Of a stretch of 64,000 nucleotides of DNA, positions 5,333 to 63,110 are shown in pieces. Location: the NCBI GenBank assembly GCA_963575745.1, contig CAUYUJ010000205.1:1-64000 (forward strand), written 5' to 3'. This DNA is from Prorocentrum cordatum. Taxonomy: Eukaryota. Position 1 is the first letter of the stretch, and the number at the start of each line of letters is the position of its first letter. The position numbers and the translations under genes were made by a program. Below the pieces are notes generated by a model. That model was not told the origin of the DNA, made no database searches, and saw only the letters and a program-made list of their open reading frames with translations.

Positions 5333-7200
5333 TTCCCGGAGAGCTCTCTGAGAGCTAGAGGGTTTTAGATTAGAAGCTGGGCGGTGGTGGTGCCCGCCAG
5401 CAGCCCATCTTCGCCAGTCCACGATCCTCGCAGCAACTTGCCCGACCCGGCAGCGTGTCAGGGAAAGCTTCCGGCAAGCTTCCACGCGTGCCTCCACGCG
5501 TGCAGGCACGCGTGGAAGCGTTCCTGGTAGCGTTTCAAAGACGCTGCAGGGATGCCCCCCGAGCCCCAGAAGAGCTTCACGAGAGCTTCTGTGGGCTTGC
5601 CAGGAAGGCTTCTCCCGGATAGCCTCTTGGGCTACGTAGGGTTGTTAGACTAGAAGCCGGCGGGCGCGCGTACGCCGCCGCACCCCTCCGCCCACCGCTC
5701 TACGTGCCCTTCCGTGACTCGTACCTCGTAGAGCTCTTCGGCAAGATGAGCTAAGAGGAATTCGGGCGCAGGTGGAGCTAGTTGGCCGACCCGAGCTTAA
5801 GAGACAATGAGACGACTTGGGGTCGGTTATTCTATCTTTGCGCAAAAAGTTAGTTTTATTTTTCCCGGAGAGCTCTCTGAGAGCTAGAGGGTTTTAGATT
5901 AGAAGCCGGACGGTGGTGGTGCCCGCCAGCAGCCCATCTCCGCCGCTCCACGATCCCCGCAGCGCCTCGCCTGACCCGGCAGAGGGTCCGGGAGCGCTTC
6001 CGGCAAGCCTCTGCGCGTGCCTGCACGCGTGCAGGCACGCGTGGAAGCGATCCTGGCAGCGCTTCAGAAGCGCCCCAGGGGAGCCCCCGGAGCTCCGGAA
6101 GCGCTTCAGGGGAGCTTCCGAAAGCTGGCCAGGAAGGCTGTCGGGTGTGTGCCCTCCTTGCTCTCCGGGTTTTGGACGCATCCAAGTTCTATCTTTGTTC
6201 CCGGAGAGCTCGCTGAGAGCTAAAGGGTTTAAGATTAGAAGGCAGACGGTGGTGGTCCCGCCAGGAGCTCTTCCACGGCGGTCCACGTTCCCCGCAGAAA
6301 CTCCGGCGGCCCGGTAACGTGTCCGGGAGAGCTGCCGGCAAGCTTCCACGCGTGCCTGCACGCGTGCAGGCACGCATGGAAGCGTTCCTGGCAGCGCTTC
6401 AGCAGCCCTCCAGGGGAGCTTCCCAGGGCTCTCCAGGAAAGATTTCCCGTCCTGGAGAGTGTCTTCGCTCTTCGGGTTTTTCCCGGGGAGCTCTCTGAGA
6501 GCTAAAGGGTTTTAGATTACAAGCCGGACGGTGGTGGTGCCCGCCAGCAGCCCATCTTCGCCGGCCCAGAATCCCCGCAGCCGTTCGTTCGACCAGGCAG
6601 CGTGTCCGGGAGAGCTGCCGGCAAGCATCCGCGCAGGCCTTCACGCGTGCAGGCACGCGTGGAAGCGTTCCTGGCAGCGTTTCAGAGACGCTGCAGGGGG
6701 GCGCCCCGAGCTCCAGAAGAGCTTCACGAGAGTTTCTGTGGGCTTGCCAGGACGGCTGTTCAGTGCGTGTTCTCTTTGCTCTCCGGGTTTTTCCCGGAGA
6801 GCTCGCTGAGAGCTAAAGGGTTTAAAATTAGAAGCCGGACGGTGGTGGTGCCCGCCAGGAACTTTTCCGCGGCGCTCCACGGTCGCCGCAGACACTCCGG
6901 CGACCCGGCAGCGGGTCCGGGAGAGCTCCCCGCCAGCTTCCACACGTGTACCTCGTAGAGCTCTTCGGCATCGATGAGACCTCTCTGATTTTTTTTTTTT
7001 GCCTTTGTTGTGGGTCCTTTTCCATATTTATTTTTATTATTTTTATTTTTTTTTTTTTCGTTTTAGCCTTTTTTTTATTTTGTTTTTGTCTTTTTTCTTT
7101 TTTTAGCCTTGTTTAATAGTTTTTTTTTTAGTTGACTTTCTTTTCTTTTTTTTGTTTTTTATTTAGAGGAATAACTTGTAGAGCTTCCCGTAGCAAGTTA

Positions 7201-7525
7201 TTCCCGGAAAGCTCGCTGAGAGCTAAAGAGTTTAAGATAAGAAACCGGACGGTGGCGGTGCCCGCCAGCAGCCCATCTCCGCTGCTCCACGATCCACGCA
7301 GCGCCTCGCCTGATCCGGCAGCTGGTCCGGGGGAGCTTCCGGCAAGCTTCCAGGCGTGCCTGCACGCGTGCAGGCACGCGTGGAAGCGATCCTGGCAGCG
7401 CTTCGGAAGCGCTGCCGGGGAACCCCCCAGAGCTCCAGAAGAGCTTCACGCGAGCTTCCGTGGGATTGCCAGGAAGGTTTTCCAGTGTGTGTCTCTTTGC
7501 TCTCCGGGTTTTGGACGCTACCAAG
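7201..7525 (+). mobile_element. Family C element (325 bp) inserted in a family A head
   Basis: Flanks GCAAGTTA|TTGCTGGAAGC rejoin to the A head consensus. Confidence 0.85.
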
Positions 7526-7840
7526 TTGCTGGAAGCTTAAGAGCAATAACTCGTAGAGCTTCCCTGAGCAAGTTATTGCTGGAAGCGAAGAGTAATTCCC
7601 GGAGAGCTCGCTGAGAGCTAAAGGGTTTAAGATTAGAAGCCGGACGGTGGTGGTGCCCGCCAGGAGCTCTCCACGGCGGTCCACGTTCCCCGCAGCGACT
7701 CGCCTGAACCGGCAACGTGTCCGGGAGAGCTTCCGGCAAGCTTCCACGCGTGCCTGCACGCGTGCAGGCACGCATGGAAGCGTTTCGGCCAGCGCTTCAG
7801 AAGCTCTGCTGGGGAGCTTCCCAGAGCTCTCCAGCAAAGA

Positions 7841-8242
7841 CTTGTAAGCGTCCAAAACCCGGATAGCGAAGCCAAGCGCGGAACGCCGCACGTGGACTCT
7901 GCCAGGCCGCCTGAAACAATGCGCGGGACGCTGGAAAACTTGCAGGAGACGCTTGCAGGGGCGCTGTTTACGATGCGTGGGGCCCTTCAAAGCGCGGAAG
8001 GAAGATCTGCCTAGGAGCCTGGAAAAACTGCCGAAGCTCTTCCGAAGCTCTGCCGAAGCGCTTCGCGCACCCTGGAGCCACGCGTATTGGGAAACGCTAG
8101 GAAGCCACGCTCCCGGACCCGCTGCAACCTCCGGCGAGTTGCTGCGAGAATCGTGGACCGGCGGAGGTGGGCGTGTCTCCCTCACCACCCACCGCCGGCT
8201 TCTTCTCTGAAACCCTCAGCTCTCCAAGGAGCTATCCGGGAA
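7841..8242 (-). mobile_element. Family D element (402 bp)
   Basis: Minus strand TTCCCGGATAGC...GCTATCCGGGTTTTGGACGCTTACAAG. Flanks CAAAGA|TTTCCCG match the C-type sequence near 6435. Confidence 0.8.
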
Positions 8243-8609
8243 TTTCCCGTTCCCAAAGGGTTTCTTCGCTCTCCGGGTTTTTCCCGGGTAGCTCCTTGGC
8301 GAGCTGAGGGTTTCAGATAAGAAGCCGGCGGTGGGTGGTGAGGAGCACACGCCCATCTCCGCCGGTCCACGATTCTCGCAGCAGGTTGCCGGAACCGGCA
8401 GCGGGTCCGGGAGCGTGGCTTCCTAGCGTTTCCCAATACGCGTGGCTCCAGGGTGCGCGAAGCGCTTCGGCAGAGCTTCGGAAGAGCTTCGGCAGTTCCC
8501 GGGTAGCTCCTTGGAGAGCTGAGGGTTTCAGATAAGAAGCCGGAGGTGGGTGGTGAGGGGGGCACGCCCACGCTCGCCGGTCCACGCTCGCCGGAGAAAC
8601 TCGCCGGAG

Positions 8610-9718
8610 TAACTCGTAGAGCTTCCCTTAGCAAGTTATTGCTGGAAGCTTAAGAGTAATTCCGGGGAGCTGGAGAGCTAGTTGGCAAGAAAAATCTCGA
8701 CGGACCTTTTGATGACTTTTGGTCGGTTGAAAATTTTGTTCTCAAAATTTGACCATTCGTTAGAGCTCTAGTATTTTCTCCCATGATATTCGATCTTATT
8801 CCCGCTCGCCATCTTGATCTCAGCTCGATCGGGTAACTTTGAAGGCCAAAAAGCAGGCAGGCGGGAACGGCCGTTTCGAGTCATCTTGATACGCGCTGTC
8901 GGTGTTCTCAAGATAACTCGAGCTTCAGGACAACTACAGAGCTGGTTAGCACAGCTAATGCATTCAGAATGATCAGGCGCGTTCGCCTGTTGAATCCAGA
9001 GGTCTGAACTCGGTCTGCTAGCCGAGCTAGGGTCGCAAACCTATTCGTATTATTCGAGTCATTGTAGCAGACGCTCTCGGTTTTTCGTACTTAACTCGAT
9101 CTGTAGGGCGGCCACAGAGCTGATAATCACAGAAATCGATTGATAATTACCAGGCGCGTTCGTCTGTTGAATCAACAGATCTGAACTCGGCCTGCTCCCC
9201 GAGCTAGGTTCGCGAACCTATTTGTATTCTTCGAGTGGTCTTGAGAAGTGCTCTCGGTTTTCTGTACTTTAATCGTGCTGGGGGAGGGTTAGAGTGCTGC
9301 TGGTCACAGAAATCGATTCCGAGACATCAGGCGCGTCCGTTCGTCGAATCGAGAGCTCGGAACCCGGTCTGCTGCTCCGAAACTATTGTATTATTCGAGT
9401 CATTCTGAGAGGTACTCTCGCTTTTCTTCACTTAACTCAGGCTGTATGGGGGGCTGCAGAGCTGGTAATTACAGGAATCGATCTGCAGACATCAGACGCG
9501 TCCGCCTGTCGCATTCAAAGGTCTGAACTCGGTTTCATACTCGAGCTCGATTGGAAAACTGTTGGTTTGTTTTGTTAGAGTCATTTTGAGAGGTCTATAT
9601 TCGCTTGGGCTGAAAAGCTAGCCGATCTCTGAAATTCTTTTCCGCATTATATATTGTCAGGAAGCTCTACGAGTCCCCCGGCGGTAAGAAAGGTTGACGG
9701 TTTACCGCCGGCGCCCAG
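8610..9718 (+). mobile_element. Family A element inserted in a family D copy
   Basis: Complete head and tail; flanks CTCGCCGGAG|TTCGCAGCGGG rejoin to D-like sequence. Confidence 0.85.
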
Positions 9719-9848
9719 TTCGCAGCGGGTCCGGGAGCGTGGCATCTAGCGTTTCCCAATACGCGTGGCTCCAGGGTGCGCGAAGCGCTTCGGCAGAGCT
9801 TCGGAAGAGCTTCGGCAGTTCTTCCAGGCTCCTAGGCAGATCTTCCTT

Positions 9849-10250
9849 TTCCCGGATAGCTCCTTGAGAGCAGAGGGTTTCAGAGAAGAAGCCGGCTGTG
9901 GGTGGTGAGGAGGACACGCCCACCTTCGCCGGTCCACGATCGTCGCAGCAGCTTGCCGGAACCGGCAGCGGGTCCGGGAGCGTGGCTTCCTAGCGTTTCC
10001 CAATACGCGTGGCTCCAGGGTGCGCGAAGCGCTTCGGCAGAGCTTCGGAAGAGCTTCGGCAGTTCTTCCAGGCTCCTGGGCAAATCTTCCTTGCGCGCTT
10101 TGCAGGGCCCCACGCATCGTAAACGGCGCTCCTGCAAGCGTCTCCTGCCAGGTTTCCAGCGTCCCGCGCATCGTTTCAGGCGGCCTGGCAGAGGTCCCCG
10201 TGCGGCGTTCCGCCCTTGGCTTCGCTATCCGGGTTTTGGACGCTTACAAG
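9849..10250 (+). mobile_element. Family D element (402 bp)
   Basis: TTCCCGGATAGC head and GCTATCCGGGTTTTGGACGCTTACAAG tail; same length as 7841-8242. Confidence 0.8.
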
Positions 10251-10276
10251 TAACTCGTAGAGCTTCCCTTAGCAAG

Positions 10277-11667
10277 TAACTCGTAGAGCTTCCCTTAGCT
10301 AGTTATAGCTGGAAGCTAAGAGTAATTCCGGCGCGCCCCACAGCTAGTTGGCTCGAAAAAAAAGAACTGAACTTTTGACAACTTTTGCTCGGTTGAAAAT
10401 TTTGTTCTCGAAATTTGACCATTCGTTAGAGCTCTAGTATTTTTTCCCGTGATATTCGACCTTATTCCCGCTCGCCATCTTGATCTCAGCTCGATCGGGT
10501 AACTTTGAAGGCCAAAAAGCACGGTGGCGGGACCGGCCGTTTCGAGTCATTTTGATATGCGCTGTCGGTATTTTGTACTGAACTCGAGCTGTAGGGCAGC
10601 TACAGAGCTGGCCAGCACAGCTATCGCACTCAGAATCAGCAGACGCGTTCGCCGGTTGAATTCAGAGGTCTGAACTCGGTCTGGCAGCCGAGCTAGGTCC
10701 GGAAACCTATTCGTATTATTCGAGTCAACTTGATACGCGTTGTCGGTATTTTCTACTTAACTCGAGCTGTAGGGCAGCTACAGTGCTGGTAAGCACGCCT
10801 ATCGCTCGCAGAATGATCAGGCGCGGTCGCCTGTTGAATTGATAGGTCTGAACTCGGTCTGCTAGGCGAGCTAGGTCCGCAAACCTATTCGTATTATTCG
10901 AGTGAGCTTGATACGCGTTGTCGGCATTTTCTACTTAACTCGAGCTGTAGGGCAGCTACAGTGCTGGTAAGCACACCTATCGCACTCAGAATAATCAGGC
11001 GCGTTCGCCTGTTGAATCGATAGGTCTGAACTCGGTCTGCTAGGCGAGCTAGGTCCGCAAACCTATTCGTATTATTCGAGTCCACTTGATACGCGTTGTC
11101 GGTATTTTCTACTTAACTCGCGCTGTAGGGCAGCTACAGTGCTGGTAAGCACACCTATGGCACTCAGAATAATCAGGCGCGTTCGCCTGTTGAATTCATA
11201 GGTCTGAAATCGGTCTGTTAGCCGAGCTAGGTCCGCAAACCTATTCGTATTATTCGTGTCAACTTGATACGCTTTGTCGGTATTCTCTACTTAAATCGAG
11301 CTGTAGGGCAGCTACAGTGCTGGTAAGCACGCCTATCGCACTCAGAATAATCAGGCGCGTTCGCCTGTTGAATCCAGAGCTCTGAACTCGGTCTGCTGCG
11401 CGATCTAGAATCACGAAACTGTTCGTATTCTTCCAGTCAGCTTGAGAGCTACTGTCGGCGTTCTGCACTTAGCTCGGGCTGTAGGGGGGCTGCAGGGCGG
11501 GTAATCAGAGGAATCGATTCGGAGACATCAGACGCCTCGGTCTGATGCTCGAGTTGGGCTGAAAAACTATTCGTTCTCTACAATTTTCTTCGACATTATA
11601 TGTTGTCAGGAAGCTCTACGAGTCCCCCGGCGGTAACAAAGGTTGACGGTTTACCGCCGGCGCCCAG
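10277..11667 (+). mobile_element. Family A element inserted in the head of another family A element
   Basis: Flanks CCCTTAGCAAG|TTATTGCTGGAAGC rejoin to the A head. Confidence 0.85.
10543..11460 (+). repeat. 178-bp tandem repeat internal to family A (example array)
   Basis: Equivalent positions at 10721, 10899, 11077 and 11255; the same unit recurs inside every long A copy. Confidence 0.9.
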
Positions 11668-12087
11668 TTATTGCTGGAAGCTTAAGAGTAACTCCGGAGC
11701 GCAAGAAGCCGGACGATGCTTGTGCCTGCCAGGAGCTCCTCCACGGCGGTCCACGCTCGTCGCAGCGGCTTGCCGGAACTTGCAGCGGGTCCGGGAGCGT
11801 GGCTTCCTAGCGTTTCCCAATACGCGTGGCTCCAGGGTGCGCGAAGCGCTTCGGCAGAGCTTCGGCAGAGCTTCGCCAGTGCTCGCAGGCTCCCAGGCAG
11901 ATCTTCCTTGCGTGATTTGAAGGGCCCCACGCATCGTAAACGGCGCCCCCGCGAGCGATTCCTGCGAGGTTTCCAGCGTCCCGCGCATCGTCTCAGGTAC
12001 CCTGGCAGAGCTCCCGTGCGACGTTCCGCGCTTGGCTTCGCTATCCGGGTTTTGGACGCTTACAAGTTGCTGGAAGCTTAAGAGTAA

Positions 12088-13195
12088 TAACTCGTAGAGC
12101 TTCCCTTAGCTAGTTATAGCTGAAAGCTAAGAGTAATTCCGGGGCGCCCCAGAGCTAGTTGGCAAGAAAAATCTCGACGGACCTTTTGGTGACTTTTGGT
12201 CGGTTGAAAATTTTGTTCTCGAAATTTGACGATTCGTTAGAGCTCTAGTATTTTTTCCCATGATATTCGATCTTATTCCCGCTCGCCATCTTGATCTCAG
12301 CTCGATCGGGTAACTTTAAAGGCCAAAAAGCAGGCAGACGGGAACGACCATTTCGAGTCATCTTGATACGCGCTGTCGGTTTTCTGAATATAACTCGAGC
12401 TTCAGAGCAGCTACAGAGCTGGTAAGCACAGCTATCGCACTCAGAATGATCAGGCGCGTTCGCCTGTTGAATCCAGAGGTCTGAATTCGGTCTGCTAGCT
12501 GAGCTAGGTCCGCAAACCTATTCGTATTATTCCAGTCATCTTGACAGACGCTCCGGTTTTCTGTACTTAACCCGAGCTGTAGGACAGCTACGGGGCTCAT
12601 TGTGACAGCCATCGATGGGAAATTATTAGTCGCGTTCGTCTATTGAACCGAGAGCTCTGAACAGGGCCTGCTGCCCGAGCTAGGTTCGCGAAACTATTCG
12701 TATTGTCCGAATGATCTTGAGACGTGCTCTCAATTTTCTGCACTCAACTTGTGCTGGGGGAGGGCTTCAGTGCTGCGGGTCACATATATCGATTTGCACA
12801 CATCAGGCACGTTTTTCGGTCGATTCGAGAGCTTGGAACTTGGTCTGCTGCTCGAACTAGATTCGCAAAACTATTATATTATTCGAGTCGATACTGTCGG
12901 TTTTCTGCACTTAACTCGGGCTGTAGGGGGGCTTCAGGGCTGGGGATCACATGAGTGGATTCGGAGACATCAGACGCGCCCGCATGTCGCATGGAGAGGT
13001 CTGAACTCGGTTTGATACTCGAACTGGGTTGCGAAACTGTTTGTTTTTTTGTTAGTGTTATCTTGAGAGGTCTGAAATCGCTTGGGCTTAAAGAATAGTC
13101 GTCCTTCGGGGTTTTTCCCCACAGTATATATTGTCAGGAAGCTCTACGAGTCCCCCGGCGGTAAGAAAGGTTGACGGTTTACCGCCGGCGCCCAG
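12088..13195 (+). mobile_element. Family A element
   Basis: Flanks AAGAGTAA|TTCCGGAGCG rejoin to the A head. Confidence 0.85.
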
Positions 13196-13242
13196 TTCCG
13201 GAGCGCTGGAGAGCTAGTTGGCAAGAAAAATATCGACGGACC

Positions 13243-14857
13243 TAACTCGTAGAGCTTCCCTTAGCTAGTTATAGCTGGAAGCTAAGAGTAAGTCCGGCGC
13301 GCTGGAGAGCTAGTTGGCTCAAAAAAAAAGAACTGAAGTTTTCACAACTTTTGGTCGGTTGAAAATTATGTTCTCGAAATTTGACAATTCGTTTGTGCTC
13401 TAGTATTTTTTCCCGTGATATTCGATCTTATTCCCGCTCGCCATCTTGATCTCAGCTCGATCGGGTAACTTTGAAGCCAAAAAGCACACTGGCGGGATCG
13501 CCGTTTCGAGTTATCTTGATACGCGTTGTCAGTATTTTGTACTTAACTCTAGCTAAACAACAACTACAGAGCTCGTAAGCACAGCTATCGCACTCAGAAC
13601 CATCAGGCGCGTTCGCCTGTTGAATCCATAGGTCTGAACTCGGTCTGCTAGCCGAGCTAGGTCTGCAAACCTATTCGTATTATTCGAGTGAACTTGATAC
13701 GCGTTGTCGTATTTTTCCTTTAACTCGAGCTGTAGGGCAGCTACAGTGCTGGTCAGCACGCCTATCGCACTCAGAATCATGAGGCGCGTTCGTCTGTTGA
13801 ATCCATAGGTCTTAACTCGGTCTCCCAGCTGAGCTAGGTCCGCAAACCTATTTGTATTATTCGAGTCAACTTGATACGCGTTGTCGGTATTTTCTACTTA
13901 ACTCGAGCTGTAGGGCTGCGACAGTGCTGGTAAGCACATCTATCGCACTCAGAATCACCAGGCGCGTTCGCCTGTTGAATCCATAGGTCTGAACTCGATC
14001 TGCTAGCCAAGCTAGGTCCGCAAACCTATTCGTATTATTCGAGTGAACTTCATACGCGTTGTTGGTATTTTGTACTTAATTCGAGCTGCAGGGCAGCTAC
14101 AGAGCTGATAAGCACACCTATCGCACCCAGAACTATTAGGCGCGTTCGCCTGTCGAATCTATAGGTCTGAACTCGGTCTGCTAGTCGAGCTAGGTCCGCA
14201 AACCTATTCGTATTATTGGGGTCATCTTGACAAACACTCGGTATTTTCTGTACTTAACTCGAGCTGTAGGCAGCTACAGAGCCTACAGTCACAGAAATCG
14301 ATTGAGAATTATCGGGCGCGTTTGTCCGTTGTATCGAGAGCTCTGAACTCCGCCTGCTGCCCGATCTAGGTTCGCGAAACTATTCCTATTGTCCGAATCA
14401 TCGCGAAAAGTGCTCTCAATTTTCTGCGCTGGAAGAGGGCTACAGTGCTGCGGGTCATAGAAATCGATTTGCACACATCGGGCGCGTTCGTTGGTCGATT
14501 CGAGAGCTCAGAACTTGGTCTGCTGCTCGAAACAGGTCTGCGAAACTATTATAAGATTCGAGTCATCCTGAGAGATGCTGTCGGTTTTCTGCACTTAACT
14601 CGGGCTGTAGGGGGGCTGCAGGGCTGGTAATCACATGAGTCGATTCGCAGACATCAGACGCGTCCGCCTGTCGCATTGAGAGGTCTGAACTCGGTCTGAT
14701 CAGACGCGTCCGCTTGTCGCATTCAGAGGTAAAAAAATATTCACTATGAGTCAGAACGTTGGTAGGTGCTCTCGGTTTTCTCAACTTAAGTCGAGCTTGG
14801 AAGCTCTACGAGTTCCCCGGCGGTAACCAAGGTTGACGGTTTACCGCCGGCGCCCAG
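13243..14857 (+). mobile_element. Family A element
   Basis: Flanks GACGGACC|TTTTGGTGAC rejoin to the A consensus. Confidence 0.85.
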
Positions 14858-16147
14858 TTTTGGTGACTTTTGGTCGGTTGAAAATTTTGTTCTCGAAATT
14901 TGACAATTCGTTAGAGCTCTAGTATTTTTTCCTGTGCTATTCGATCTTATTGCCGCTCGCTATCTTGATCTCAGCTCGATCGGGTATCTTTGAAGGCCAA
15001 AAAGCGTCCCGGCGGGAACGACCGTTTCGAGTCATCTTCATACGCGCTGTCGGTATTTTGTACTTAACTCGAGCTGCAGGACCAGCTACAGAGCTGGTAA
15101 GCACGCCTATCTCACTCAGAATCATCAGGCGCGTTCGCCTGTTGAACCCAGAGATCTGAACTCGATCTGCTAGCCGAGCTAGGTCCGCAAACCTATCCGT
15201 ATTATTCGAGTAAACTTCATACGCGTTGTCGGTATTTTGTACTTAACTCGAGCTGTAGGGCCGCTACAGTGCTGGTAAGCACAGCTATCGCGTTCAGAAT
15301 TATCATGCGCGTTCGCCTGTCGAATCCAGAGGTCTGGACTCGGTCTGCTAGCCGAGCTAGGTCCGCAAACCTATTCGTATTATTCGAGTCATCTTGATAG
15401 ACGCTCTCGGTTTTCTGTACTTAAGTCGAGCTGTAGGGCAGCTACATAGCTGGTAAGCACACCTATCGCATTCAGAATTATCACGCGCGTTCGTCTGTTG
15501 AATCCAGAGGACTGAAATCGGTCTGCTAGCCGAGCTAGGTCCGCAAACCTATTTGTATTATTCGAGTCATCTTGATAGACGCTCTCGGTTTCCTGTACTT
15601 AACTCGAGCTCTAGGGCAGTTGTGACAGAGATCGATGGGAAATCATCAGTCGCGTTCGTTTATTGAACGACGAGCTCTGAACTCGGCCTCCTGCCCGAGC
15701 TAGGTTCGCGAAACTATTCGTATTGTCCGAAGGATCTTACGTGCTCTCAATTTTCTGCAGCCAACTCGTGCTGCGGGAGAGCTACAGTACGCGGGTCTTT
15801 ACACATCAGACGCGTCTTTCGGTCGATTCCAGAGCCCGGAACTCGGTCTGCTGCTCGAACTAGGTTCGGGCTGTAGGGTGGCTCCATGGCTGGGAATCAC
15901 ATGAGTGGATTCGCAGACATCAGACGCGCCCGCCTGTCGCATTCAGAGGTCTGAACTCGGTTTGATACTCGAACTGGGTTGCGAAACTGTTTGTTTTTTT
16001 TTGATAGCGTTATCTTGAGAGCTCTGAAATCGCTTGGGCTTAAAAAATAGTCGTTCTTTGGAGTTTTTTTTCCACAGTATATATTGTCAGGAAGCTCTAC
16101 GAGTCCCCCGGCGGCAAGAAAGGTTGACGGTTTACCGCCGGCGCCCA

Positions 16148-21546: not shown

Positions 21547-21576
21547 AGGTGCCACGACACCATTGCGTCAGGGAAT

Positions 21577-28690: not shown

Positions 28691-28712
28691 TTCTGGGGCG
28701 CTGGAGAGCTAG

Positions 28713-29831
28713 TAACTCGTAGAGCTTCCCTTAGGAAGTTATTGCTGGAAGCTTAAGAGTAATTCCGGGGAGCTGGATAGCTAGTTGGCAAGAAAAATCT
28801 CGACGGACCTTTTGCTGACTTTTGGTCGGTTTAAAAATTTGTTCTCGAAATTTGAACATTCGTTTGAGCTCTAGTATTTTTTCCCATGATATTCGATCTT
28901 ATTCCCGCTCGTCATCTTGATCTGAGCTCGATCGGGTAACTTTGAAGGCCAAAAAGCACACGGGCGGGAACGGCCGTTTCGAGTCATCTTGATACGCGCT
29001 GTCGGTTTTCTCAAGATAACTCGAGCTTCAGGACAACTACAGAGCTGGTCAGCAGCTAATGCTCTCAGAATGATCAGGCGCGTTCGCCTGTTGAATCCAG
29101 AGGTCTGAACTCGGTCTGCTAGCCGAGCTAGGGTCGCAAACCTATTCGTATTATTCGAGTCATTGTAGCAGACGCTCTCGGTTTTTCGTACTTAACTCGA
29201 TCTGTAGGGCAGCCGCAGAGCTGATAATCACAGAAATCGATTGAGAATTATCAGGCGCGTTCGTCTGTTGAATCAAGAGCTCTGAACTCGGCCTGCTCCC
29301 CGAGCTAGGTTCGCGAACCTATTGGTATTGTTCGAGTCATCTTGAGAAGTGCTCTCGGTTTTCTGTACTTAAATCGTGCTGGGGGAGGGCTACAGTGCTG
29401 CTGGTCACAGGAATCGATTTCGAGACATCAGGCGCGTCCGTTCGTCGAACCGAGAGCTCGGAACTCGGTCTGCTGCTCGAACGAGATCCGCGAAACTGTT
29501 GTATTATTCGAGTCATCCTGAGAGGTACTCTCGGTTTAATGCACTTAACTCAGGCTGTATGGGGGGCTGCAAAGCTGGTAATCACAGGAATCGATCCGCA
29601 GACATCAGACGCGTCCGCTTGTCGCATTCAGAGGTCTGAACTCGGTTCATACTCGAGCTCGATTGGAAAACTGTTTGTTTGTTTTGTTAGAGTCATCTTG
29701 AGAGGTCTATAATCGCTTGGGCTGAAAAACTAGTCGTTTCTCTGAAATTCTTTTCCACATTATATATTGTCAGGAAGCTTTACGAATCCCCCGGCGGTAA
29801 GAAAGGTTGACGGTTTACCGCCGGCGCCCAG
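28713..29831 (+). mobile_element. Family A element
   Basis: Flanks GAGAGCTAG|TTGGCAAG rejoin to the A head. Confidence 0.85.
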
Positions 29832-31243
29832 TTGGCAAGAAAAATCTCGACGGACCTTTTGGTGACTTTTGGTCGGTTGAGAAATTTGTTCTCTTCAACA
29901 ATTTGTTTGAGCTCTAGTATTATTTCCCGTGATATTCGATCTTATTCTCGCTCGCCATGTCGATCTCAGTTCGATCGGGTACCTTTTACTTCGTCCCGGC
30001 GGGATCGGCCGTTTCGAGTCATCTTGATACGCGCTGTCAGTAGTTTGTACCTAACTCGAGCTGTAGGGCAGCTACAGAGCTGGTCAGCACACCTATCGAA
30101 TGCAGAATCATCAGGCGCATTCGCCTGTTGAATCGAGAGGTATAAACTCGGTCTGCTAGCCGAGCTAGGTCCGCAAATCTATTTGTATTATTCGAGTTAT
30201 CTTGACAGACGCTCTCGGTTTTCGGTACTTAACTCGAGCTGTAGGGCAGCTACAGAGACCATAGTCACAGAAATCGATTGGGAGTCATCAGGCGCGTTCG
30301 TCTGTTAATTCGAGAGATCTGAACTCGGCCTCTTGCCCGAGCTAGGTTCGGAAAACCTACCCGTATTCCTCTCGTGCTGGGAGTGGGATACAGTGCTGCT
30401 GGTCAGATAAATCGGTTCGGACACATCAGGCGCGTCCGTCTGTCGAACCCAAAACTCGGAACTCGGCCCGCTGCTCGAACTAGCTCCGCGAAAATATTGT
30501 ATTATTCGAGTCATCCTGAGAGATGCTGTCGGGTTTCTTCATTTAACTCGGGCTGTAGGGGGCTGCAGGGCTCAAAGACAGCAGACGCGTCCGCCTGTCG
30601 CATTCAGAGGTCTGAATTCGGATTGATATTCGAACTGTGTTGCGAAATGTTTTTTTGAAGTCATCTTCGAAATCGCTTGGGCTGAAAAACTAGTCGTTCT
30701 GGAGTTTTCCCCACATTATATACTGTCAGGAAGCTCTACGAGTCCCCCGGCGGTAAGAAAGGTTGACGGTTTACCGCCGGCGCCCAGTTCCCGGAGAGCT
30801 CGCTGAGAGCTAGAGGGTTTAAGATTAGAAGCCGGTTCCGGGGCGCTAGAGAGCTAGTTGGCAAGGAAAGTCTCGACGGACCTTTTGCTGACTTTGGTCG
30901 GTTGAAAATTTTTGTTCTCGAAATTCAACAATTCGTTTAAGCTCTAGTATTTTTTCCCGTGATATTCGATCTCATTCCCGCTCGCGATCTCGATCTCAGT
31001 TCGATCGGGTATTTTTCACTTGCAAAAAGCACACGAGCGGGATCGACCGTTTCGAGTCATCTTGTTACGCGCTGTTGGTTTTCTCACGATAACTCGAGCT
31101 TCAGGACAGTTATAGAGCTGATAAGCACGTCTAATCGATGTAGAATGATTCGGCGCGTTCGCCTGTTGAACCCAGAGGTCTGAACTCGGTCTGCTAGTCG
31201 AGCTAGGTGCGCAAACTTATTTGTATTATTTGAGTCATCATCA

Positions 31244-32590
31244 CTGGGCGCCGGCGGTAAACCGTCAACCTTTGTTACCGCCGGGGGACTCGTAGAGCTT
31301 CCTGACAGTATATAGTGTGGGAAAAAATCCAGAGAACGACTAGTTTTCAGCCCAAGCGATTTCAGACCTCTCAAGATGACTCTAACAAAAAAAAAAAAAC
31401 AGTTTCGCAACCCAGTTCGAGTATCAGACCGAGTTCAGACCTCTAATGCGACAGGCGGACGCGTCTGATGTCTGCGAATCGACGCATGTGATTACCAGCC
31501 CTGCAGCCCCTCTACAGACCGAGTTAAGTGCAGAAAACCAACAGCATCTCTCAGGATGACTCGAATAATACAATAGTTTCGCGGACCTGTTTCGAGCAGC
31601 AGACCAAGTTCTGAGCTCTCGAATCGACCAACGAACGCGCTGATGTGTGCAAATAGGCCGAGTTCAGAGCTCTCGATACAACAGACAAACGCGCCCGATA
31701 ATTTTCAATCGATTTCTGTGACTATAGGCTCTGTAGCTGCCCTACAGCTCGAGTAAAGTAGAGAAAACCGAGAGCGTCTGTCAAGATGCCTCGGATAATA
31801 CGAATAGGTTTGCGGACCTGGCTCGGCTAGCAGACCAATTTCAGACCTCTCGATTCAAGAGGCGAACGCGCCTGATAATTCTGAATGCGATGAATGTGCT
31901 TACCAGCTCTCTAGCTGCCCTGCAGCTCGAATTTAGAAGAAAATACCCACAACGCGTATGAAGTTCACTCCAATAATACGAATAGGTTTGCGGACCTAGC
32001 TCGGCTAGCAGACTGAGTTCAGACCTATGGATTCAACAGGCGAACGCGCCTGATGATTCTGAGTGCGATAGGTGTGCTTACCAGCACAGTAGCTGCCCTA
32101 CAGCTCGAGTTAAGTAGAAAATACCGACCACGCGTATCAAGTTGACTCGAATAATACGAATAGGTTTGCGGACCTAGCTCGGCTAACAGACCGAGTTCAG
32201 ACCTATGACTGGAACAGGCGAACGCGCCTGATGATTCTGAGTGCGATAGCTGTGCTTACCAGCTCTGTAGTTCTCCTACATATCGATTTGAGTACAACAT
32301 ACCGACAACGCGTATCAAGATGACTCGAAACGGCCGATCCCGCCAGTGTGCTTTTTGGCAGTAAAAGGTACCCGATCGAGCTGAGATCAAGATGGCGAGC
32401 GTGAATAAGATCGAATATCACGGGAAATAATACCAGAGCTCGAACGAATGGTCAAGTTTCGAGAACAAAATTTTCAACCGACCAAAAGTTGTGAAAAGTT
32501 CAGTTCTTTTTTTCGAGCCAACTAGCTCTCCAGCGCGCCGGAATTACTCTTAAGCTTCCAGCAACTAGCTTGGGGAAGCTCTACGAGTCA
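31244..32590 (-). mobile_element. Family A element in reverse orientation within another A copy's 178-bp repeats
   Basis: Reverse-complement tail CTGGGCGCCGGCGGTAAACC at 31244 and head GAAGCTCTACGAGTCA ending at 32590. Confidence 0.85.
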
Positions 32591-35500
32591 CAGACGCTCT
32601 CAGTTTTCTGTACTTCACTCGAGCTAAAGAGCAGCTGCAGAGCTGATACGTACAGAAACTGATTGAGAATCATCAGTGGCCGTTGTCTGTTGAATCTACA
32701 GCTCTGAACTCAGTCTGCTGCCGATCTAGAATTACGAAACTATTCGTATTGTCCGAGTCGCTTGCGAGATGCTATCGGTTCTCTGCACTTCAATCGGGCT
32801 GCAGGGGGGCTGCATGGCTGGTAATCACTGGAATCGATGCGGAGACATCAGGTGCGTTCGTCTGCGAAATCCAAAGCTCTGAACTCGGTCTGTTGCGCAA
32901 ACTAGGTCCGCGAAACTATTCGTATTGTAACTCCTAGAGCTTCCCTTAGCAAGTTATTGCTGGAAGCTTAAGAGTAATTCCGGGGCGCTGGAGAGCTAGT
33001 TGGCAAGGGAAATCCCGACGGACCTTTTGCTGACTTTTAGTCGGTTGAAAATTTTGTTTACGATAACTCGAGCTTGAGGACAGCTAAAGAGCTGATAAGC
33101 ACAGCTAATCGATTCGAAATGATCAGGCGCGTTCGCCTGTTGAAGCTAAAGGTCTGAATTCGGTCTGCTAGCCGAGCTAGGTACGAAAACTTATTCGTGT
33201 TATTCGAGTCATTGACAGACGCTCTCGGTTTTCTGTACTACAGGACAGCTAAAGAGCTGATACGAACAGAATCTGATTCAGAATGATCAGTGGTCGTTGT
33301 CTGTTGAATCCGGAGCTCTGATCTCGGTCTGCTGCCCGATCTAGAATCGCGAAACCATTCGTATTGTTCAAGTCGCTTGCGAGATGCTGTCGGTTCTCTG
33401 CACTTATCTCAGGCTGTAGCTGGTAATCACTGGAATCGATTCGAAGACATCAGGCGCGCACGCCTGCGGAATAGCTCCGAACTCGGTCTGTTGCCAAACT
33501 AATTCCGCGAAGCTATTCGTATTGTTCGAGTCATCCTGAGAGGTGTTGTCGGTTTCCTGCACTTAACTCGGCTGTAGGGGGGGCTGCAGGGCTGGTAATC
33601 ACAGGGATCGATTTAGAGACATCAGACGCGTCCGTCTGTCGCATGCAGAGTCTGAACTCGGTCTGATACTCGAACTAGGTTTGCCAAACTATTCGTATTG
33701 TCCGAGTCATCTTGAGAGGTGCTGTCGATTTACGCGGCTGTAGGAGAGCTACAGAACCCGTGCAGAAGAGAATCTAGAAGCATCGGGGGCGTTCGGCTGT
33801 TGCATCCGAGAGGTCTCAAATTGCCTGGGCTGAAAAACTATGTTTTCTGTATAATTTCTTCCGACATTATATGTTGTCAGGAAGCTCTACGAGTCTCCCG
33901 GCGGTAAGAAAGGTTGACGGTTTACCGCCGGCGCCCAGTTCCGGCGCGGGGTGGAGCTAGTTGGCCCAGCCGGCCGAGGCGGACAATGTGGCAACTTTTG
34001 GGTGGTTTTGCAATTTTTTGAAAGATATTTGACAATTCATTTTGAGAAAGCAGATTTTTACTCCGAGCATTGAGATATAAACTTTGTTCCCTGAGCAGCT
34101 CAGCCCTCTAGAGTCATTTTTAGTACCAGTTCACTTGGAGGAACCGACTTCATGCTGACTCCGAAAAATCTCGACTTGAAGTTTTTGTAGAAAAGCTCCC
34201 AGGAGCTCCCTCTTTGATGCTGAGCTTTCTCGCGGATGCAAGGAGCTCTACGAGGTTCCCGGCGGTGACCAGATTGACGGTTCACCGCCGGCGCCAGTTG
34301 GCCCAGCCGGCCGAGGCGGACAATGTGACAACTTTTAGGTAGTTTTGCAAATATTTGAAAGATATTTGACAATTCATTTTGAGAAAGCAGATTTTTCGCA
34401 CCTGTAGACAACTTTGAGGGCCTCTGCGTCTTAATATGAGCGCTGAAGGCTCACTCTTACTATCAAAACACTTGGCGCAACCAACTTTCTATCGACATGA
34501 AAAAATTGAAGATTCAATTTTTCGAGAAATGCCTCGAGCAGCTCTCTTCTTCGACTCTTAGCACTCTCACGCGTGAAAAGAGCTCTACGAGGTTCCCGGC
34601 GGAGACCAGGTTGACGGTTTACCGCCGGTGCCAGTCTGCATGCGTGCAGGCACGCATGGAAGCGTTTCTGGCAGCGCTTCGGCAGCGCTGCAGGGAGCCC
34701 CCCTCAGCTCTCCAGGAAAGGTCTCTTCGCTCTCCGGGTTTTGGCCCCTACCAAGTGGACGCTACCAATGGACGCTACCAAGCGTAAAATTGACTCGTAG
34801 CGCTTCCCTAAGCTAGTTCCTGAAGCTTAAGAGTAATTCCAGCGCGCTGGAGAGCAAGTTGGCAAGACAAATCTCGAAGGAACTTTTGGTGACCTTTGGT
34901 CGGTTGAAAATTTTGTTCTCGAAATTGGAACATTCGTTAGAGCTCTAGTATTTTTTCGCGTGGTATTCATCTTGATCTCAGCTCGATCGGGTGAATATTA
35001 GTATCGAAAAGCACTGTGGTGGGATCGGTCGTTTCGATCTTAATACGGGCTGACGGTTTTCTGAACATAGCTCGAGCTTTAGGACAGCTAAAGAGCTGGT
35101 CAGCACAGCTAATTGATGCAGAATGAATAGGCGCGTTCGTCTGTTGAATCCAGAGGTCTAAACTCGGTCTGTTAGGCGAGCTAAGTCTGCAAACCTATTC
35201 GTATTATCCGAGTGATCTCGACTGAAACTCTGGGTTTTCTGTACTTAACTCGAGCTGTAGGACAACTACAGAGCTGATATTTACATAAACCAGGTGAGAA
35301 TCATCAGTTACGTTTGTCTGTCGAATCCAGAGCTCTGCAGTCGGTCTGTTGCCCGATCTAGAATCGCGAAATCATTCATATTGGTAGAGTCATCTTAAGA
35401 AGTGCCCTCGGTTTTCTTCACAGAACTCGGGTTGAGGGGGCTACAGTGCTCGTTGTCAGAGGAATCGATTTGAAGAGATCAGGCGCGTCCGTCATCCAGA

Positions 35501-37771
35501 GCTCAGAAATCGGTCTGCCCAAACTAGGTTCGCGAAACTATTGTATTGTTCGAGTCATCCTGAGAGGTGCTGTCGGTTTTCTGCACTTAACTCGGGGGCT
35601 GTAGGGGGGCTGCAGGGATGGTGATGACAGGAGTCGATTCGCAGACATGAGACGCGTCCGCCTGTCGCATTCAGAGGTCAAAACGTATTCACTATGAGTC
35701 GGAATCTTGGTAGGTGCTGTCGGTTTTCTCAATTTAAGTCGAGCAAGGAAGCTCTAGGAGTCTCCCGGCGGTAACCAAGTTTGACGGTTTACCGCCGACG
35801 CCCAGTTGAAAGTCCGTTTTACAAACAGGTATTTTTCCCACCTGTAGCGGGTTATGCCGCGTCTGCCAGTTAAATTCCCAGGTCTGGTAATACTACTATC
35901 AAAAGACTTGAGGGAACCGTCGGCCGTTTCGAGTCATCTTGATACGCGTTGACGGTTTTCTGTACTTAACTCGAGATTTAGGACAGCTATAGAGCTGATA
36001 CTTACAGAAACCGATTCAGAATAATCAGGCGCGTTTGTCTGTCCCATCGAGAGGTGTGAACTCGGTCTGCTGCTCGAGCTAGGCCCGCAAAACTATTTGT
36101 AATATACGATCATTTTGACGAGTGTTGTCGGTTTCCCTTAACTGAAGATTTAGAAGAGCTACAGAGCTGGCACGCATATAAACCGAGCCAGTATCACCCG
36201 ACGCGATTTTTCTCGCATCGAGAGGTCCGAACTGGGTCAGGCAGCTAGGTCCACGAAGCGAAGATGCAACATTTAAAAAACATATTTTCGGATATTTCTT
36301 CTTCACGCTTGAGAAACTTCTTTCGTGTGCTTTGAGCAGCACCGCGCCAGAATAGAGCTCTACGAGGCTCCGGCGGTTACTGGTTGACGGTTTACGCCGG
36401 ATCCCAGTAGAGCTTCCCTTAGCTAGTTGCTGGAAGCTTAAGAGTAATTCCGGCGCGCTAGAGAGCTAGTTGGCAAGAAAAATCTCGACGTAACTTTTGC
36501 TGACTTTGGGTCGGTTGAAAATTTTGTTCTCGAAATTTGAACATTCGGTAGAGCTCTTTTTTTTTCTGTGATATTCGATCTTATTCGCGCTCTCCATCTT
36601 GATCTCAGCTCGATCGGGTACCTTTTACTGCAAAAAAGCACTGTGGCGGGATTGGCCGTTTCGAGTCATCTTGACACGCGGTGACGGTTTTCTGTGGACA
36701 TAACTTGAACTTTAGGACAGCTACAGAGCTGGTAAGCACAGCTAATCGATTCAGAATGATCAGGCGCGTTCGCCCGTTGAATCCAGAGGTCTGAACTCGG
36801 TCTGCTAGCCGAGCTAGGTCTGCAAACCTATTCGTATTATTCGAGTCATCTTGATAGACGCTCTCGGTTTTCTGTACTTAACTCGAGCTATAGGACAGCT
36901 ACAGAGCTGATACTTACAGAAACCGATTGAGAATCATCAGTATCATTTGTCTGTTGAATCCAGAGCTCTGAACTCGGTCTGCTGCCCGATCTAGAATCGC
37001 GAAACTATTCGTATTGTTGGAGTCATCTTGAGAGATGCTGTCGGTTCTCTGCACTTAACTCGGGCTGTAGGGGGGCTGCATGGCTGGCTATCACTGAAAT
37101 CGATTCGAGAACATGAGGCGCGTCCGTCTGTCGAATCGAGAGCTCCGAACTCTGTCTGCTGCCCGAACTAGGGCCGCGAAACTATTCGTATTGTTGGAGT
37201 CGTCTTGAGAAGTGCTCTCGGTTTTCTGCACTCGACTTGGGCTGGGGGGGGCTACAGTAAAAGTAAGGAAGCTCTACGAGTCTCCCGGCGGTAACCAAGG
37301 TTGACGGTTAACCGCCGGCGCGAGTGGTCCCTCGGGTTCTGCAGCGTGTCCCGGGGCGTCCGTTCCAATGCGTTCCCGTAGAACGTGCTCCAGAGGCCTC
37401 GCGAATGTGCCCCAGAGGCCTCGCAGAGCTTCCCGGGCAGCGAGCGCCCAAGCGTTCAGGCACGCGTGGAGGCGTCGCTGTCTTCCCTTCAGGAGCGCAG
37501 GCAAGCTTTCCAGCGCCACCACGCACGTTTGCTAGCAACTTGTGCAGCGCTTTAGAAGCTGACACCTCTGCGCACGTCGAAGACGTGCACCGGGCCTTGC
37601 GCGCGCAGCACTCTAAGGGAGCGTAGAGGCACGCGCGGTGCCAGGGGCATGACCCAGGTCTGGCGCGACGAGACCCGTGCGCGCGCGTCTCTGGCTTGGC
37701 TATCCGGGTTTTGGACAACAACAGGTTTAGTGCGTGTCCTCTTTGCTCTCCGGGTTTTCGACGCTACCAAG

Positions 37772-38168
37772 TACCTCGTAGAGCTCTTCGGCATCGATGA
37801 GCTAGAGGAATTCCGGCGCGGGGTGGAGCTAGTTGGCCCAGCCGGCCGAGGCGGACAATGTGGCAACTTTTGGGTAGTTTTGCGAAAATTTGAAAGATAT
37901 TTGACAATCTATTTTAAGAAAGCAGATCTTTGCGCGTCGCATTGGCAGATAAACTCCTCTCTGACAGCAGCTCAGCTTTCTCGATGCATTTTTGCATGAG
38001 TTGACTTCCAGGAACTGAGCGAATATGAACATCGAAAAAATCGAATTTGAAGATTTTCGAAAAATCTTTTTTTTTCACTCTGTGTCGATTCTCTGCACCC
38101 TTACCAGTGAGAGGAGCTCTACGAGGTTCCCGGCGGTGACCAGGTTGACGGTTCACTGCCGGCGCCAG
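37772..38168 (+). mobile_element. Uninterrupted family B element (397 bp)
   Basis: TACCTCGTAGAGCTC...GAGCTCTACGAGGTTCCCGGCGGTGA-loop-TCACTGCCGGCGCCAG. Confidence 0.85.

Positions 38169-48320: not shown

Positions 48321-48352
<32 letters not shown>

Positions 48353-62549: not shown

Positions 62550-63110
<561 letters not shown>

What the first reader, a model, noticed from the sequence alone, without database searches (positions are those of the whole stretch)
5333..38168. A 33-kb insertion pile sits inside a single codon of a transposase-like gene
Seen: joining 5332 to 38169 gives a stop-free minus-strand frame: ADGKKYFGRTFLSKLVNSHAVVFAQKFDKQIADGSSD-N-IWAGARGVPVRYLCAAIERIVHGALVAACLWWFRF. Both breakpoints are exact element ends (C head at 5333, B tail at 38168) and obey the before-TT rule. 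Inference: dozens of insertions accumulated at one site, while 39.7-64 kb has none. This suggests strong self-targeting or local hopping that builds satellite-like blocks.
Basis: partly seen in the sequence, partly recalled or inferred. Interest (0 to 1): 0.8.

Follow-up and report, generated by a model that had tools for sequence, protein, structure and literature searches.

The report
Nested rolling-circle transposons split a transposase pseudogene
A 33-kb stack of small Helitron-type mobile elements, inserted one inside another, separates the two halves of an old hAT-like transposase pseudogene; this is a tidy but ordinary example of how such elements pile into each other.

Summary
Proteins found using only the left flank (4798-5331, minus strand) also match the right flank (38170-38961, minus strand). 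They do so in the same order, with the same spacing across the junction as in uninterrupted relatives. The two flanks are therefore halves of one gene.

A homolog of that gene has a fold like the hAT transposase Hermes (Z 12.1, next unrelated 6.5). The window copy is a pseudogene: it has two frameshifts, and the match to relatives stops at 38961 without reaching their N-terminal part.

The interval is entirely transposon sequence. It holds about 30 non-autonomous Helitron2/Helentron-like elements: target T^T or T^C, no target duplication, subterminal inverted repeats, a 3' hairpin, and 178-bp central tandem repeats. It also holds one LINE-like insert (19992-25797).

"Dozens of hits at one site" is not what happened. 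Only two elements touch the gene:
- one C element, split into 5334-5611 and 37727-37772;
- one complete B element, 37773-38168.

The other 32 kb is nested inside that C element. The same families also fill 1-4764 and 38970-39667.

Nested insertions favour the first ~120 nt and the 3' junction of resident elements, in the same orientation. Self-insertion of this kind is already described for Helitron2 in Fusarium. This is a new member of a known kind, of low to moderate interest.

The parts
4798..5332 (-). Downstream half of the hAT-like transposase pseudogene. It contains the WWFRF, FP.LLL and TQ.VEG-type motifs; the invariant Glu of the family lies here.
   Evidence: Query (43 homologs). tblastn. 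Alignment. Alignment A1 has invariant E562 and R495.
38170..38969 (-). Upstream half of the same pseudogene. Homology runs from 38961 down to 38170. The frame changes near 38355 and 38725. The match to relatives stops at 38961 (P0003 residue 385); an A tail occupies 38970-39067.
   Evidence: P0003, P0032, P0011 and P0009 matches in three frames with 10-16 nt between them, too short for introns. Sequence.
5334..5611 (+). 5' part (consensus positions 1-279) of C element 'C1', which abuts the gene.
37727..37772 (+). 3' part (about positions 281-326) of the same C element C1.
   Evidence: it takes up where 5334-5611 stops and shares the subfamily-specific letters of the copy at 6481-6791. No other C copy in the interval is broken at about position 280.
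37773..38168 (+). Complete B element: head ACCTCGTAGAGCTCTTCGG, 3' hairpin, tail ...GCCGGCGCCAG. It lies between the end of C1 and the gene.
5612..37726 (+). A 32.1-kb nest inside C1. By strict motifs the interval 5333-38168 holds 29 heads in all (15 A, 5 B, 8 C on +, 1 A on -) and 28 tails. There are also diverged C-like copies and the LINE-like insert.
12089..13196 (+). Reference complete A element (1108 bp). It has a 5' head, 178-bp tandem units, a 3' subterminal inverted repeat, a hairpin and a CGCCCAG tail. It is inserted at a T^T site about 50 nt into another A head.
   Evidence: (10 paralogous uninterrupted sites).
19992..25797 (+). Degenerate LINE-like retroelement inserted in the hairpin loop of an A tail. 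It is flanked by a 6-bp direct repeat, GGTTGA (19986-19991 and 25798-25803).
   Evidence: RVT_1 E 2e-5, 24.8 bits, below Pfam's cut-off of 29.6, for 23384-23836.
4436..4764 (-). Complete C element in the opposite orientation, bounding the gene fragment on its other side.
38970..39667 (+). Cluster of fragments to the right of the gene fragment: A tail 38970-39067, a B element 39147-39544, a B head 39546-39600 and an A head 39602-39667.
1..3789 (.). A further nest of the same families to the left of the gene. In 1-5332, 11 of 12 heads are on the minus strand.
40322..40885 (+). A second fragment of the same protein family on the opposite strand, from the cysteine-rich C-terminal end.
   Evidence: P0003 residues 1171-1355, E 4.7e-25; also P0031 and P0042. 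Pfam PHD matches only at E 0.87-2.6.

Best explanation
A decayed copy of a hAT-like transposase gene lies on the minus strand. It was hit at one T^T site by a non-autonomous rolling-circle element of family C and by a family B element that sits directly at C's 3' end. Both inserted precisely, with no target duplication.

The C element then became the landing pad for more elements of families A, B and C. Each newcomer entered a T^T (sometimes T^C or T^G) site in a resident element. The favoured sites were the first ~120 nt or the exact 3' junction, in the host element's orientation. About 30 elements and one LINE-like retroelement built up 33 kb.

The satellite-like look comes from the 178-bp tandem units that each A element carries (2 to 5 copies each).

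Shown: the flanks are one gene; the elements have these termini and target; eight nested insertions are precise; the top level is C plus B. Inferred: rolling-circle transposition by an unseen Rep/helicase partner, and the order of events.
For: **Gene continuity.**, as set out in the observation check.

**Fold.** An AlphaFold2 model of homolog P0011 has pLDDT 65.8 and pTM 0.68. Its five best matches are all Hermes hAT transposase: Z 12.1, 11.8, 11.4, 11.3 and 8.5. The next, unrelated, match is Z 6.5.

**Element anatomy.**
- 42 of 43 true heads are preceded by T. The base after the tail is T in 15 of 20 A tails, 3 of 3 B tails and 13 of 17 C tails. T makes up 26% of the sequence.
- The 5' ACTCGTAGAGCTTCC is repeated inverted near the 3' end.
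- A and B tails have a 10-bp stem, with a compensatory change between them (TAA/TTA against TGA/TCA).
- There are 178-bp arrays inside A elements.

**Precise nesting.** Eight head-tail pairs of one family, 1.0-7.3 kb long, leave flanks that match 4 to 11 uninterrupted paralogous sites without a gap.

**Top level.** 5334-5611 and 37727-37772 together make exactly one C element.

**All transposon.** The only stretches over 100 bp without a repeat in the interval are the LINE-like insert, the inside of a B element (28241-28663) and a diverged C-like body (37332-37739).

**Site bias.**
- Of 11 insertions hosted in A, 6 lie at positions 29-123 and 3 at 1106-1108 (P 4e-7 against the share of TT sites).
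- 20 of 22 are in the host's orientation.
- 7 of 43 heads follow a tail directly.

**No block duplication.** The longest self-matches are one element long, 1.0-1.8 kb at 75-94% identity.

**Published anatomy.** It matches passages read in PMC4067079 (subTIRs, central repeats, 3' stem loop, TT target, no duplication), PMC5148889 (Helitron2 self-insertion, stacked short 5' ends) and bioRxiv 10.1101/2025.11.06.686955 (Helitron2 inserts in T(T/C)).
Against: - No Rep/helicase gene was found in the window. Across the only Pfam family found was RVT_1. One search scanned 76 of the 112 stop-to-stop ORFs of 140 aa or more; earlier calls covered others.
- No whole genome is held, so no autonomous partner can be tied to these ends.
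- The C family has no 3' hairpin. Hairpin z-scores are modest, -1.0 to -1.7.
- A full bracket parse fails in places. For example, heads at 16210 and 16240 precede only one tail, and the tail at 37321 is cut short. Deletions or composite elements must be allowed.
- Insertions counted for the bias may not be independent events.
- The hAT-like fold rests on a homolog about 34% identical over 117 aligned residues. No Pfam hAT family is detected in the gene or in 18 homologs.
- The internal order of the 33 kb has not been checked with reads.
Confidence: 0.85

Rival explanations
1. One reading: the single TT in the gene is a hotspot that was hit dozens of separate times, so the pile grew side by side at one host site.
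For: Heads directly follow tails in 7 of 43 cases, so the junction beside a resident element is a favoured target. The C and B elements at the gene do sit side by side at one site.
Against: Only C1 and one B touch the gene. The two pieces of C1 enclose the other 32.1 kb. Eight insertions are shown to lie inside other elements, not in host sequence.
Confidence: 0.07
2. Composite transfer: the nest, or a large part of it, formed elsewhere and moved into the gene as one unit. The transposase would have started at a C head and run through to a distant 3' end.
For: Passages in PMC5148889 and bioRxiv 10.1101/2025.11.06.686955 describe end bypass and composite Helitrons. Heads outnumber matching tails locally, and blocks that start with one family's head and end with another's tail occur twice (5334..38168 and 16210..34297).
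Against: No second copy of any multi-element block is seen in the window; the longest self-match is 1.8 kb. Copies differ by 6-25%, which suggests slow accumulation. A 32-kb unit would be very large.
Confidence: 0.05
3. Assembly artefact: the 33 kb is a mis-joined or collapsed repeat, and the gene is either intact or split differently in the real genome.
For: The families are very abundant. In run X1 the summed word depth at the termini is 1e5 or more, against about 5-10 on the unique gene parts. Two contigs break exactly at 38169/38170 and 38969/38970. Such repeats are hard to assemble.
Against: There are no Ns in the interval. The matched halves of C1, the matched gene halves and eight clean nested insertions would not come from random mis-joins. 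The breaking contigs carry 2-4 differences and may be a paralog or another allele.
Confidence: 0.03

Closest known systems
HINE / DINE-1: non-autonomous Helentron derivatives (Thomas et al. 2014, PMC4067079; passages and section 6 read)
   Same: Subterminal inverted repeats, central tandem repeats, a 3' stem loop, insertion at TT, no target duplication, very high copy number.
   Different: No autonomous partner has been seen here, so Helentron (with endonuclease) cannot be told from Helitron2. Some insertions are at T^C or T^G. Family C lacks the 3' hairpin. The termini are this organism's own.
Helitron2 of Fusarium oxysporum (FoHeli), with self-insertion and stacked 5' ends (PMC5148889; passages read)
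   Same: Asymmetric terminal inverted repeats with the 3' repeat tens of bp from the end. Hairpins at the ends. Nested and composite elements. Several short (<200 bp) 5' ends ahead of one 3' end, as at 10252/10278 and 16210/16240.
   Different: Here the nesting runs to about 30 elements over 33 kb, almost all in one orientation, and involves three non-autonomous families carrying satellite-like repeats.
Cg_HINE elements carrying satellite-like repeats in the Pacific oyster (PMC7492417; abstract and passages read)
   Same: Tandem repeats carried between conserved flanks of a Helentron-type non-autonomous element, TT preference, no target duplication. The empty-site test I used is the same idea.
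   Different: The oyster elements are described as dispersed. The terms 'nested' and 'inserted into' do not occur in that paper's text.
hAT transposases (Hermes, PDB 4d1q / 6dwz / 8edg)
   Same: The predicted fold of homolog P0011 aligns over 320 residues (Z 12.1, rmsd 5.0). An invariant Glu lies where the alignment ends (model 564 to Hermes 574). From memory, not from a call, I also recognise C..H and RW-type motifs that recall hAT blocks.
   Different: No Pfam hAT, BED or dimerisation family is detected in the gene or in 18 homologs. Long relatives are about 1350 aa with a cysteine-rich end. The element's own ends and target duplication are unknown.

Membership tests
Helitron2/Helentron-type non-autonomous elements (HINE) | Insertion within TT (Helitron2: T followed by T or C), without target-site duplication. 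| tested here: met
   42 of 43 heads are preceded by T, and most tails are followed by T. Eight excisions restore paralogous sites without a gap; the targets are T^T in 5, T^C in 2 and T^G in 1. The gene site is T^T.
Helitron2/Helentron-type non-autonomous elements (HINE) | Subterminal or asymmetric terminal inverted repeats. | tested here: met
   In A, the 5' ACTCGTAGAGCTTCC is matched by GGAAGCTCTACGAGT about 45-60 nt from the 3' end. B and C have the same layout.
Helitron2/Helentron-type non-autonomous elements (HINE) | Hairpin near the 3' end (and at the 5' end in Helitron2). | tested here: met
   A and B have a 10-bp stem ending 9 nt from the terminus, with a compensatory change between families; z -1.6 and -1.7. 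5' hairpins are predicted for A, B and C at z -1.0 to -1.6. The C family has no 3' hairpin.
Helitron2/Helentron-type non-autonomous elements (HINE) | Central tandem repeats. | tested here: met
   Arrays of 176-178 bp, 2.6 to 5.1 copies, inside A elements.
Helitron2/Helentron-type non-autonomous elements (HINE) | An autonomous partner with the same ends that encodes Rep/helicase (plus an AP endonuclease in Helentrons). | not testable with these tools
   No genome is held. No Rep or helicase family was found in the window's ORFs.
hAT superfamily transposase (the interrupted gene) | RNase H-like catalytic domain interrupted by a large helical insertion domain. | tested here: met
   This was tested on homolog P0011, not on the window copy. 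Matches to Hermes score Z 12.1, 11.8, 11.4 and 11.3, against 6.5 for the next unrelated chain. Foldseek alone gave only E 0.34, prob 0.41.
hAT superfamily transposase (the interrupted gene) | Sequence match to the hAT dimerisation or other hAT family profiles. | tested here: not met
   0 Pfam families in the two gene halves and in 18 homologs at E <= 0.001. The Atlas gave only a weak lead to a ZBED5-type RNase-like family, score 0.78.
hAT superfamily transposase (the interrupted gene) | Terminal inverted repeats and an 8-bp target duplication of the element that carries the gene. | not tested
   The ends of the carrying element were not found. Other insertions bound the gene fragment at 4764/4765 and 38969/38970.

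The most novel reading that the evidence does not exclude
These elements may have a built-in, strand-specific preference for their own 5' leader and for the T^T junction at the 3' end of resident copies. If so, one founder insertion grows on its own into a one-directional, satellite-bearing block. That would be a route from a single transposon hit to heterochromatin-like or centromere-like arrays. It would also be a case where a rolling-circle transposase picks targets that resemble its own end.
Probability: 0.3. Interest if true: 0.5.

Novelty: new member of a known kind. Interest (0 to 1): 0.3.

Why it matters
The finding gives base-level proof that 33 kb of repeats grew from one point. It shows that these elements insert precisely, without duplicating their target. 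It also supplies a small quantitative case that they prefer each other's ends, in one orientation. That is useful for annotating this genome's repeats and for thinking about how transposons seed satellite DNA. It adds a Pfam-invisible clade of hAT-like transposases. It does not reveal a new kind of system, since nesting and self-insertion of Helitron-type elements are already in print.

Tried and rejected
- **Metagenome scan.** A 20-nt stretch of the left flank gave one hit, which is a chance match in unrelated DNA.
- **Word-indexed protein search.** The left-flank ORF, restricted to lengths 97-312 aa, gave nothing at E <= 0.01.
- **Pfam.** Nothing on the gene halves or on 18 homologs. No names for 10 homolog clusters.
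- **Foldseek alone.** No match at E <= 0.001.
- **Earlier findings.** The look-ups returned nothing.
- **Sequencing runs.** One DNA run (X1) holds 55% of the sampled words of the right flank. No RNA holder is listed.
- **Logan contigs of X1.** They are too short to bridge the junction or confirm the span. Parts of 38398-38580 have no cover.
- **Full bracket parse.** I tried to parse all 33 kb and gave up, because heads and tails do not balance in places.
- **Empty-site screen.** Of 681 head-tail pairs, 57 rows passed. Many rows match themselves, because the right flank begins with another head. I kept only nearest same-family pairs with 4 or more paralogous sites, which gave 8. I set aside ambiguous rows such as 7548-13196, 12089-28691 and 16210-34298.
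- **Fuzzy regex scan.** It under-reported matches, so I replaced it with a Hamming scan.
- **Segmental duplication as the source of the block.** Rejected, because no self-match exceeds 1.8 kb.
Full report
**What is at the coordinates.** The left flank ends ...CCCAAATAT at 5333 and is followed by a C-family head (TCCCGGAGAGC...). A B-family tail ends at 38168 and is followed by TTATCTG.... Joining 5332 to 38169 in a script gives a minus-strand frame of 230 codons with no stop. Because both sides share TT, three adjacent cut positions give the same joined sequence. Two of them, including the T^T placement, lie inside one Asn codon. The window has no N in the interval; its only gap is 53421-53520. 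No whole genome is held for the window.

**Is the join more than chance?** The open frame alone says little, because only 51 codons come from the right flank. I therefore searched 1.84 billion representative proteins using the left-flank ORF only (4798-5331, minus strand). This returned 43 proteins at E <= 0.001, 3 of them at E <= 1e-10, with a best of 1.3e-12. I then ran tblastn of all 43 against the window.

- Four of the 43 hit the right flank on the same strand at E <= 0.01: P0003 3.4e-21, P0032 8.2e-11, P0011 1.3e-5, P0009 4.7e-4.
- Three more hit it weakly (P0018, P0040, P0034). Most of the others are too short at the N-terminal side to reach it.
- The order is collinear, and the spacing across the junction fits: P0009 16 residues against 17 codons, P0032 27 against 24, P0003 77 against 71.
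- I chose 16 of the 43 for having N-terminal sequence. In 14 of these 16, a single blastp match to the script-joined translation spans residue 51/52. P0012 and P0016 do not span it.
- The alignment shows family motifs on both sides of the junction: a YLGPT.LS.LV block in the right flank, a conserved Trp just past the junction, then FRF, FPLLLL and TQ.VEG.NS.LQ blocks in the left flank.

The two flanks are halves of one gene.

**What the gene is.** Pfam sees nothing in either half or in 18 homologs, and 10 homolog clusters carry no informative name. I aligned 34 relatives (A1) and folded P0011, an 803-aa homolog (pLDDT 65.8, pTM 0.68).

- Foldseek alone gave no hit at E <= 0.001. Hermes transposase had the highest probability (0.41) among the listed rows.
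- Re-alignment with VIA-align put five Hermes entries on top: Z 12.1 (rmsd 5.0, 320 aligned), 11.8, 11.4, 11.3 and 8.5. The next, unrelated, chain scored 6.5.
- The family-invariant Glu (E562 of P0011) lies where the alignment to Hermes ends (model 564 to chain 574). From memory, not from a call, this is near the catalytic Glu of Hermes.

"Transposase-like" is therefore supported at the level of fold, through a homolog about 34% identical over 117 aligned residues.

The window copy is a wreck.
- Its matches sit in three frames, with only 10-16 nt between them near 38725 and 38355. These are frameshifts, not introns.
- The match to relatives stops at 38961, at residue 385 of P0003; nothing further upstream was found on this strand, and an A tail occupies 38970-39067.
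- Similarity fades soon after the VEG motif.

A second fragment of the same family, from its cysteine-rich C-terminal end, lies on the other strand at 40322-40885 (E 4.7e-25). The family is therefore multi-copy here.

**What fills the interval.** Self-BLAST covers nearly all of 5333-38168. The stretches over 100 bp without a repeat are 19948-25791, 28241-28663 and 37332-37739.

- The first is a degenerate LINE-like element, 19992-25797. It sits in the hairpin loop of an A tail and is flanked by a 6-bp direct repeat. It has reverse-transcriptase-like ORFs, with RVT_1 at E 2e-5, below Pfam's cut-off.
- The second is the inside of a B element whose head (26835) and tail (28690) are both present.
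- The third is a diverged C-like body ending in a C-type tail.

The rest belongs to three families.
- **Family A**, about 1.1 kb, starts AACTCGTAGAGCTTCCC. It carries 2.6-5.1 copies of a 176-178-bp unit. An inverted copy of its 5' end lies near the 3' end, followed by a 10-bp-stem hairpin and CGCCCAG.
- **Family B**, about 0.4 kb, has the same layout. Its hairpin differs from A's by a compensatory change.
- **Family C**, about 326 bp, has inverted CCCGGAGAGC ends and a GGACGCTACCAAG tail, but no 3' hairpin.
- All three have a predicted 5' hairpin, with modest z-scores.

**Target and precision.**
- 42 of 43 true heads are preceded by T. The base after the tail is T in 15 of 20 A tails, 3 of 3 B tails and 13 of 17 C tails. 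T makes up 26% of the sequence. Three of the A misses are GC-rich chance hits near 47 kb.
- In an empty-site test, I joined 35-nt flanks of 681 head-tail pairs and searched them against the window. 57 rows passed, and many of them were self-matches that I discarded.
- Eight nearest same-family pairs leave flanks that match 4-11 uninterrupted paralogous sites without a gap: 2493-3789, 10278-11668, 12089-13196, 13244-14858, 18569-25825, 26857-27887, 28714-29832 and 31243-32589 (minus strand).
- The targets were T^T in five, T^C in two and T^G in one, with no duplication.

This matches the published description of Helentron-derived HINE/DINE-1 elements (subTIRs, central repeats, 3' stem loop, TT target, no target change; PMC4067079, passages and section 6). 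It also matches Helitron2, which inserts in T(T/C) and has asymmetric inverted repeats and hairpins (bioRxiv 10.1101/2025.11.06.686955 and PMC5148889, passages). No Rep/helicase ORF is in the window. One search scanned 76 of the 112 ORFs of 140 aa or more, and searches scanned others; the only family found was RVT_1. Helentron and Helitron2 cannot be told apart here, and the rolling-circle mechanism is inferred from anatomy.

**How the pile is built.** The C piece at 5334-5611 stops at consensus position about 279. The piece at 37727-37772 takes up at about 281 and runs to the C tail. Both carry the letters of the same subfamily. No other C copy in the interval is broken there. One C element therefore encloses 5612-37726. 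A complete B element (37773-38168) sits between its end and the gene.

The gene's TT took two elements, not dozens. Everything else is nested, and several levels can be read:
- a head within a head at 10252/10278;
- A inside a B head at 26857;
- A inside an A tandem unit at 31243-32589;
- a LINE-like element inside an A hairpin.

A complete bracket parse fails in places, for example two heads at 16210 and 16240 before one tail. Deletions or composite elements must be allowed. The longest self-matches are one element long (1.0-1.8 kb, 75-94% identity). Block duplication did not build the region, and the copies are old.

**Is there self-targeting?**
- By strict motifs the interval holds 29 heads, 28 of them on the plus strand. 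Left of the gene, 11 of 12 heads are on the minus strand. None lie beyond 39667, and the three family references have 0 BLAST hits there.
- For 22 of 43 heads I could name the host fragment just upstream; 20 of the 22 share its orientation.
- Of 11 insertions hosted in A, six lie at positions 29-123, three at 1106-1108 and two in the tandem units. The first 123 nt plus the 3' junction hold 13% of A's TT sites (P 4e-7).
- Seven of 43 heads follow another element's tail with only T or TT between them (P 3e-8 against about 5,455 TT sites).

These tests assume independent events, which I cannot show. Selection against insertions in the neighbouring DNA would also produce clustering. The pattern (short stacked 5' ends, nested and composite copies) is what PMC5148889 describes as Helitron2 self-insertion in Fusarium. 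Local hopping was not tested.

**The surroundings.** The same families fill 1-4764, including a complete C in the opposite orientation at 4436-4764, right against the gene fragment. They also fill 38970-39667. The pile is therefore not confined to one site. 39.7-64 kb lacks these families but is not transposon-free. It holds a clear reverse transcriptase ORF at 57191-58408 on the minus strand (E 5e-24).

**Reads.** One public DNA run (X1) holds 55% of the sampled words of the right flank. Its Logan contigs are too short to test the span.
- Summed word depth is about 2-40 on the unique gene parts and 1e5 or more on the element ends. This fits very abundant families, although the tool warns that depth is not copy number.
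- A 493-nt contig lies on 38170-38267 with only its last 98 letters and leaves the window exactly at the junction.
- A 345-nt contig does the same at 38969/38970.
- Both carry 2-4 differences from the window. They may come from an uninterrupted paralog or allele. I could not see their free ends.

**Verdict.** The interpretation needs correcting: this is a nest that grew from two insertions in a dead hAT-like transposase gene, inside a wider island of the same elements. It is a new member of known kinds, namely Helitron2/Helentron-type non-autonomous elements with satellite-like cores and a Pfam-invisible hAT-like clade. The self-targeting signal is suggestive but has precedent in print.

Noticed in passing
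window 57191-58408 (-): An ORF with a strong reverse transcriptase match (RVT_1, E 5e-24, 85 bits). A second retroelement lies in the part of the window that lacks families A-C.
   Followed up: partly
window 41663-42529: An ~870-bp stretch that matches its own reverse complement at 66-73% identity, a long imperfect palindrome. It is unrelated to families A-C.
   Followed up: no
window 40322-40885 (+): The cysteine-rich C-terminal end of the same hAT-like family (P0003 residues 1171-1355, E 4.7e-25), on the opposite strand from the split copy. Pfam PHD matches only at E 0.87-2.6.
   Followed up: partly
window 37300-39100 in run X1: Summed word depth on B head, B tail and A tail is 1e5 to 4e5, against about 2-40 on the unique gene parts. 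Two contigs leave the window exactly at the element boundaries 38169/38170 and 38969/38970.
   Followed up: partly
window 6979-7172 and 18178-18560: T-rich low-complexity tracts of about 200-400 bp that begin just after a B head (6950) or an A head (18108). They may be variable cargo of some copies.
   Followed up: no
window 17518-17860: A 183-bp unit repeated 1.9 times at 93% identity, GC-rich and different from the 178-bp A unit.
   Followed up: no
window 46400-50500, 60000-60100 and 62490-63000: Long purine-rich GAG/GGA tracts and a GTT/GTC triplet array. They create many overlapping open frames with no Pfam match.
   Followed up: no
window 961-1939 (-): Three C units in tandem (period 312). 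Removing them as a block restores an A element at about position 69, with 9 paralogous uninterrupted sites. This is another multi-element block in a single T^T site.
   Followed up: partly
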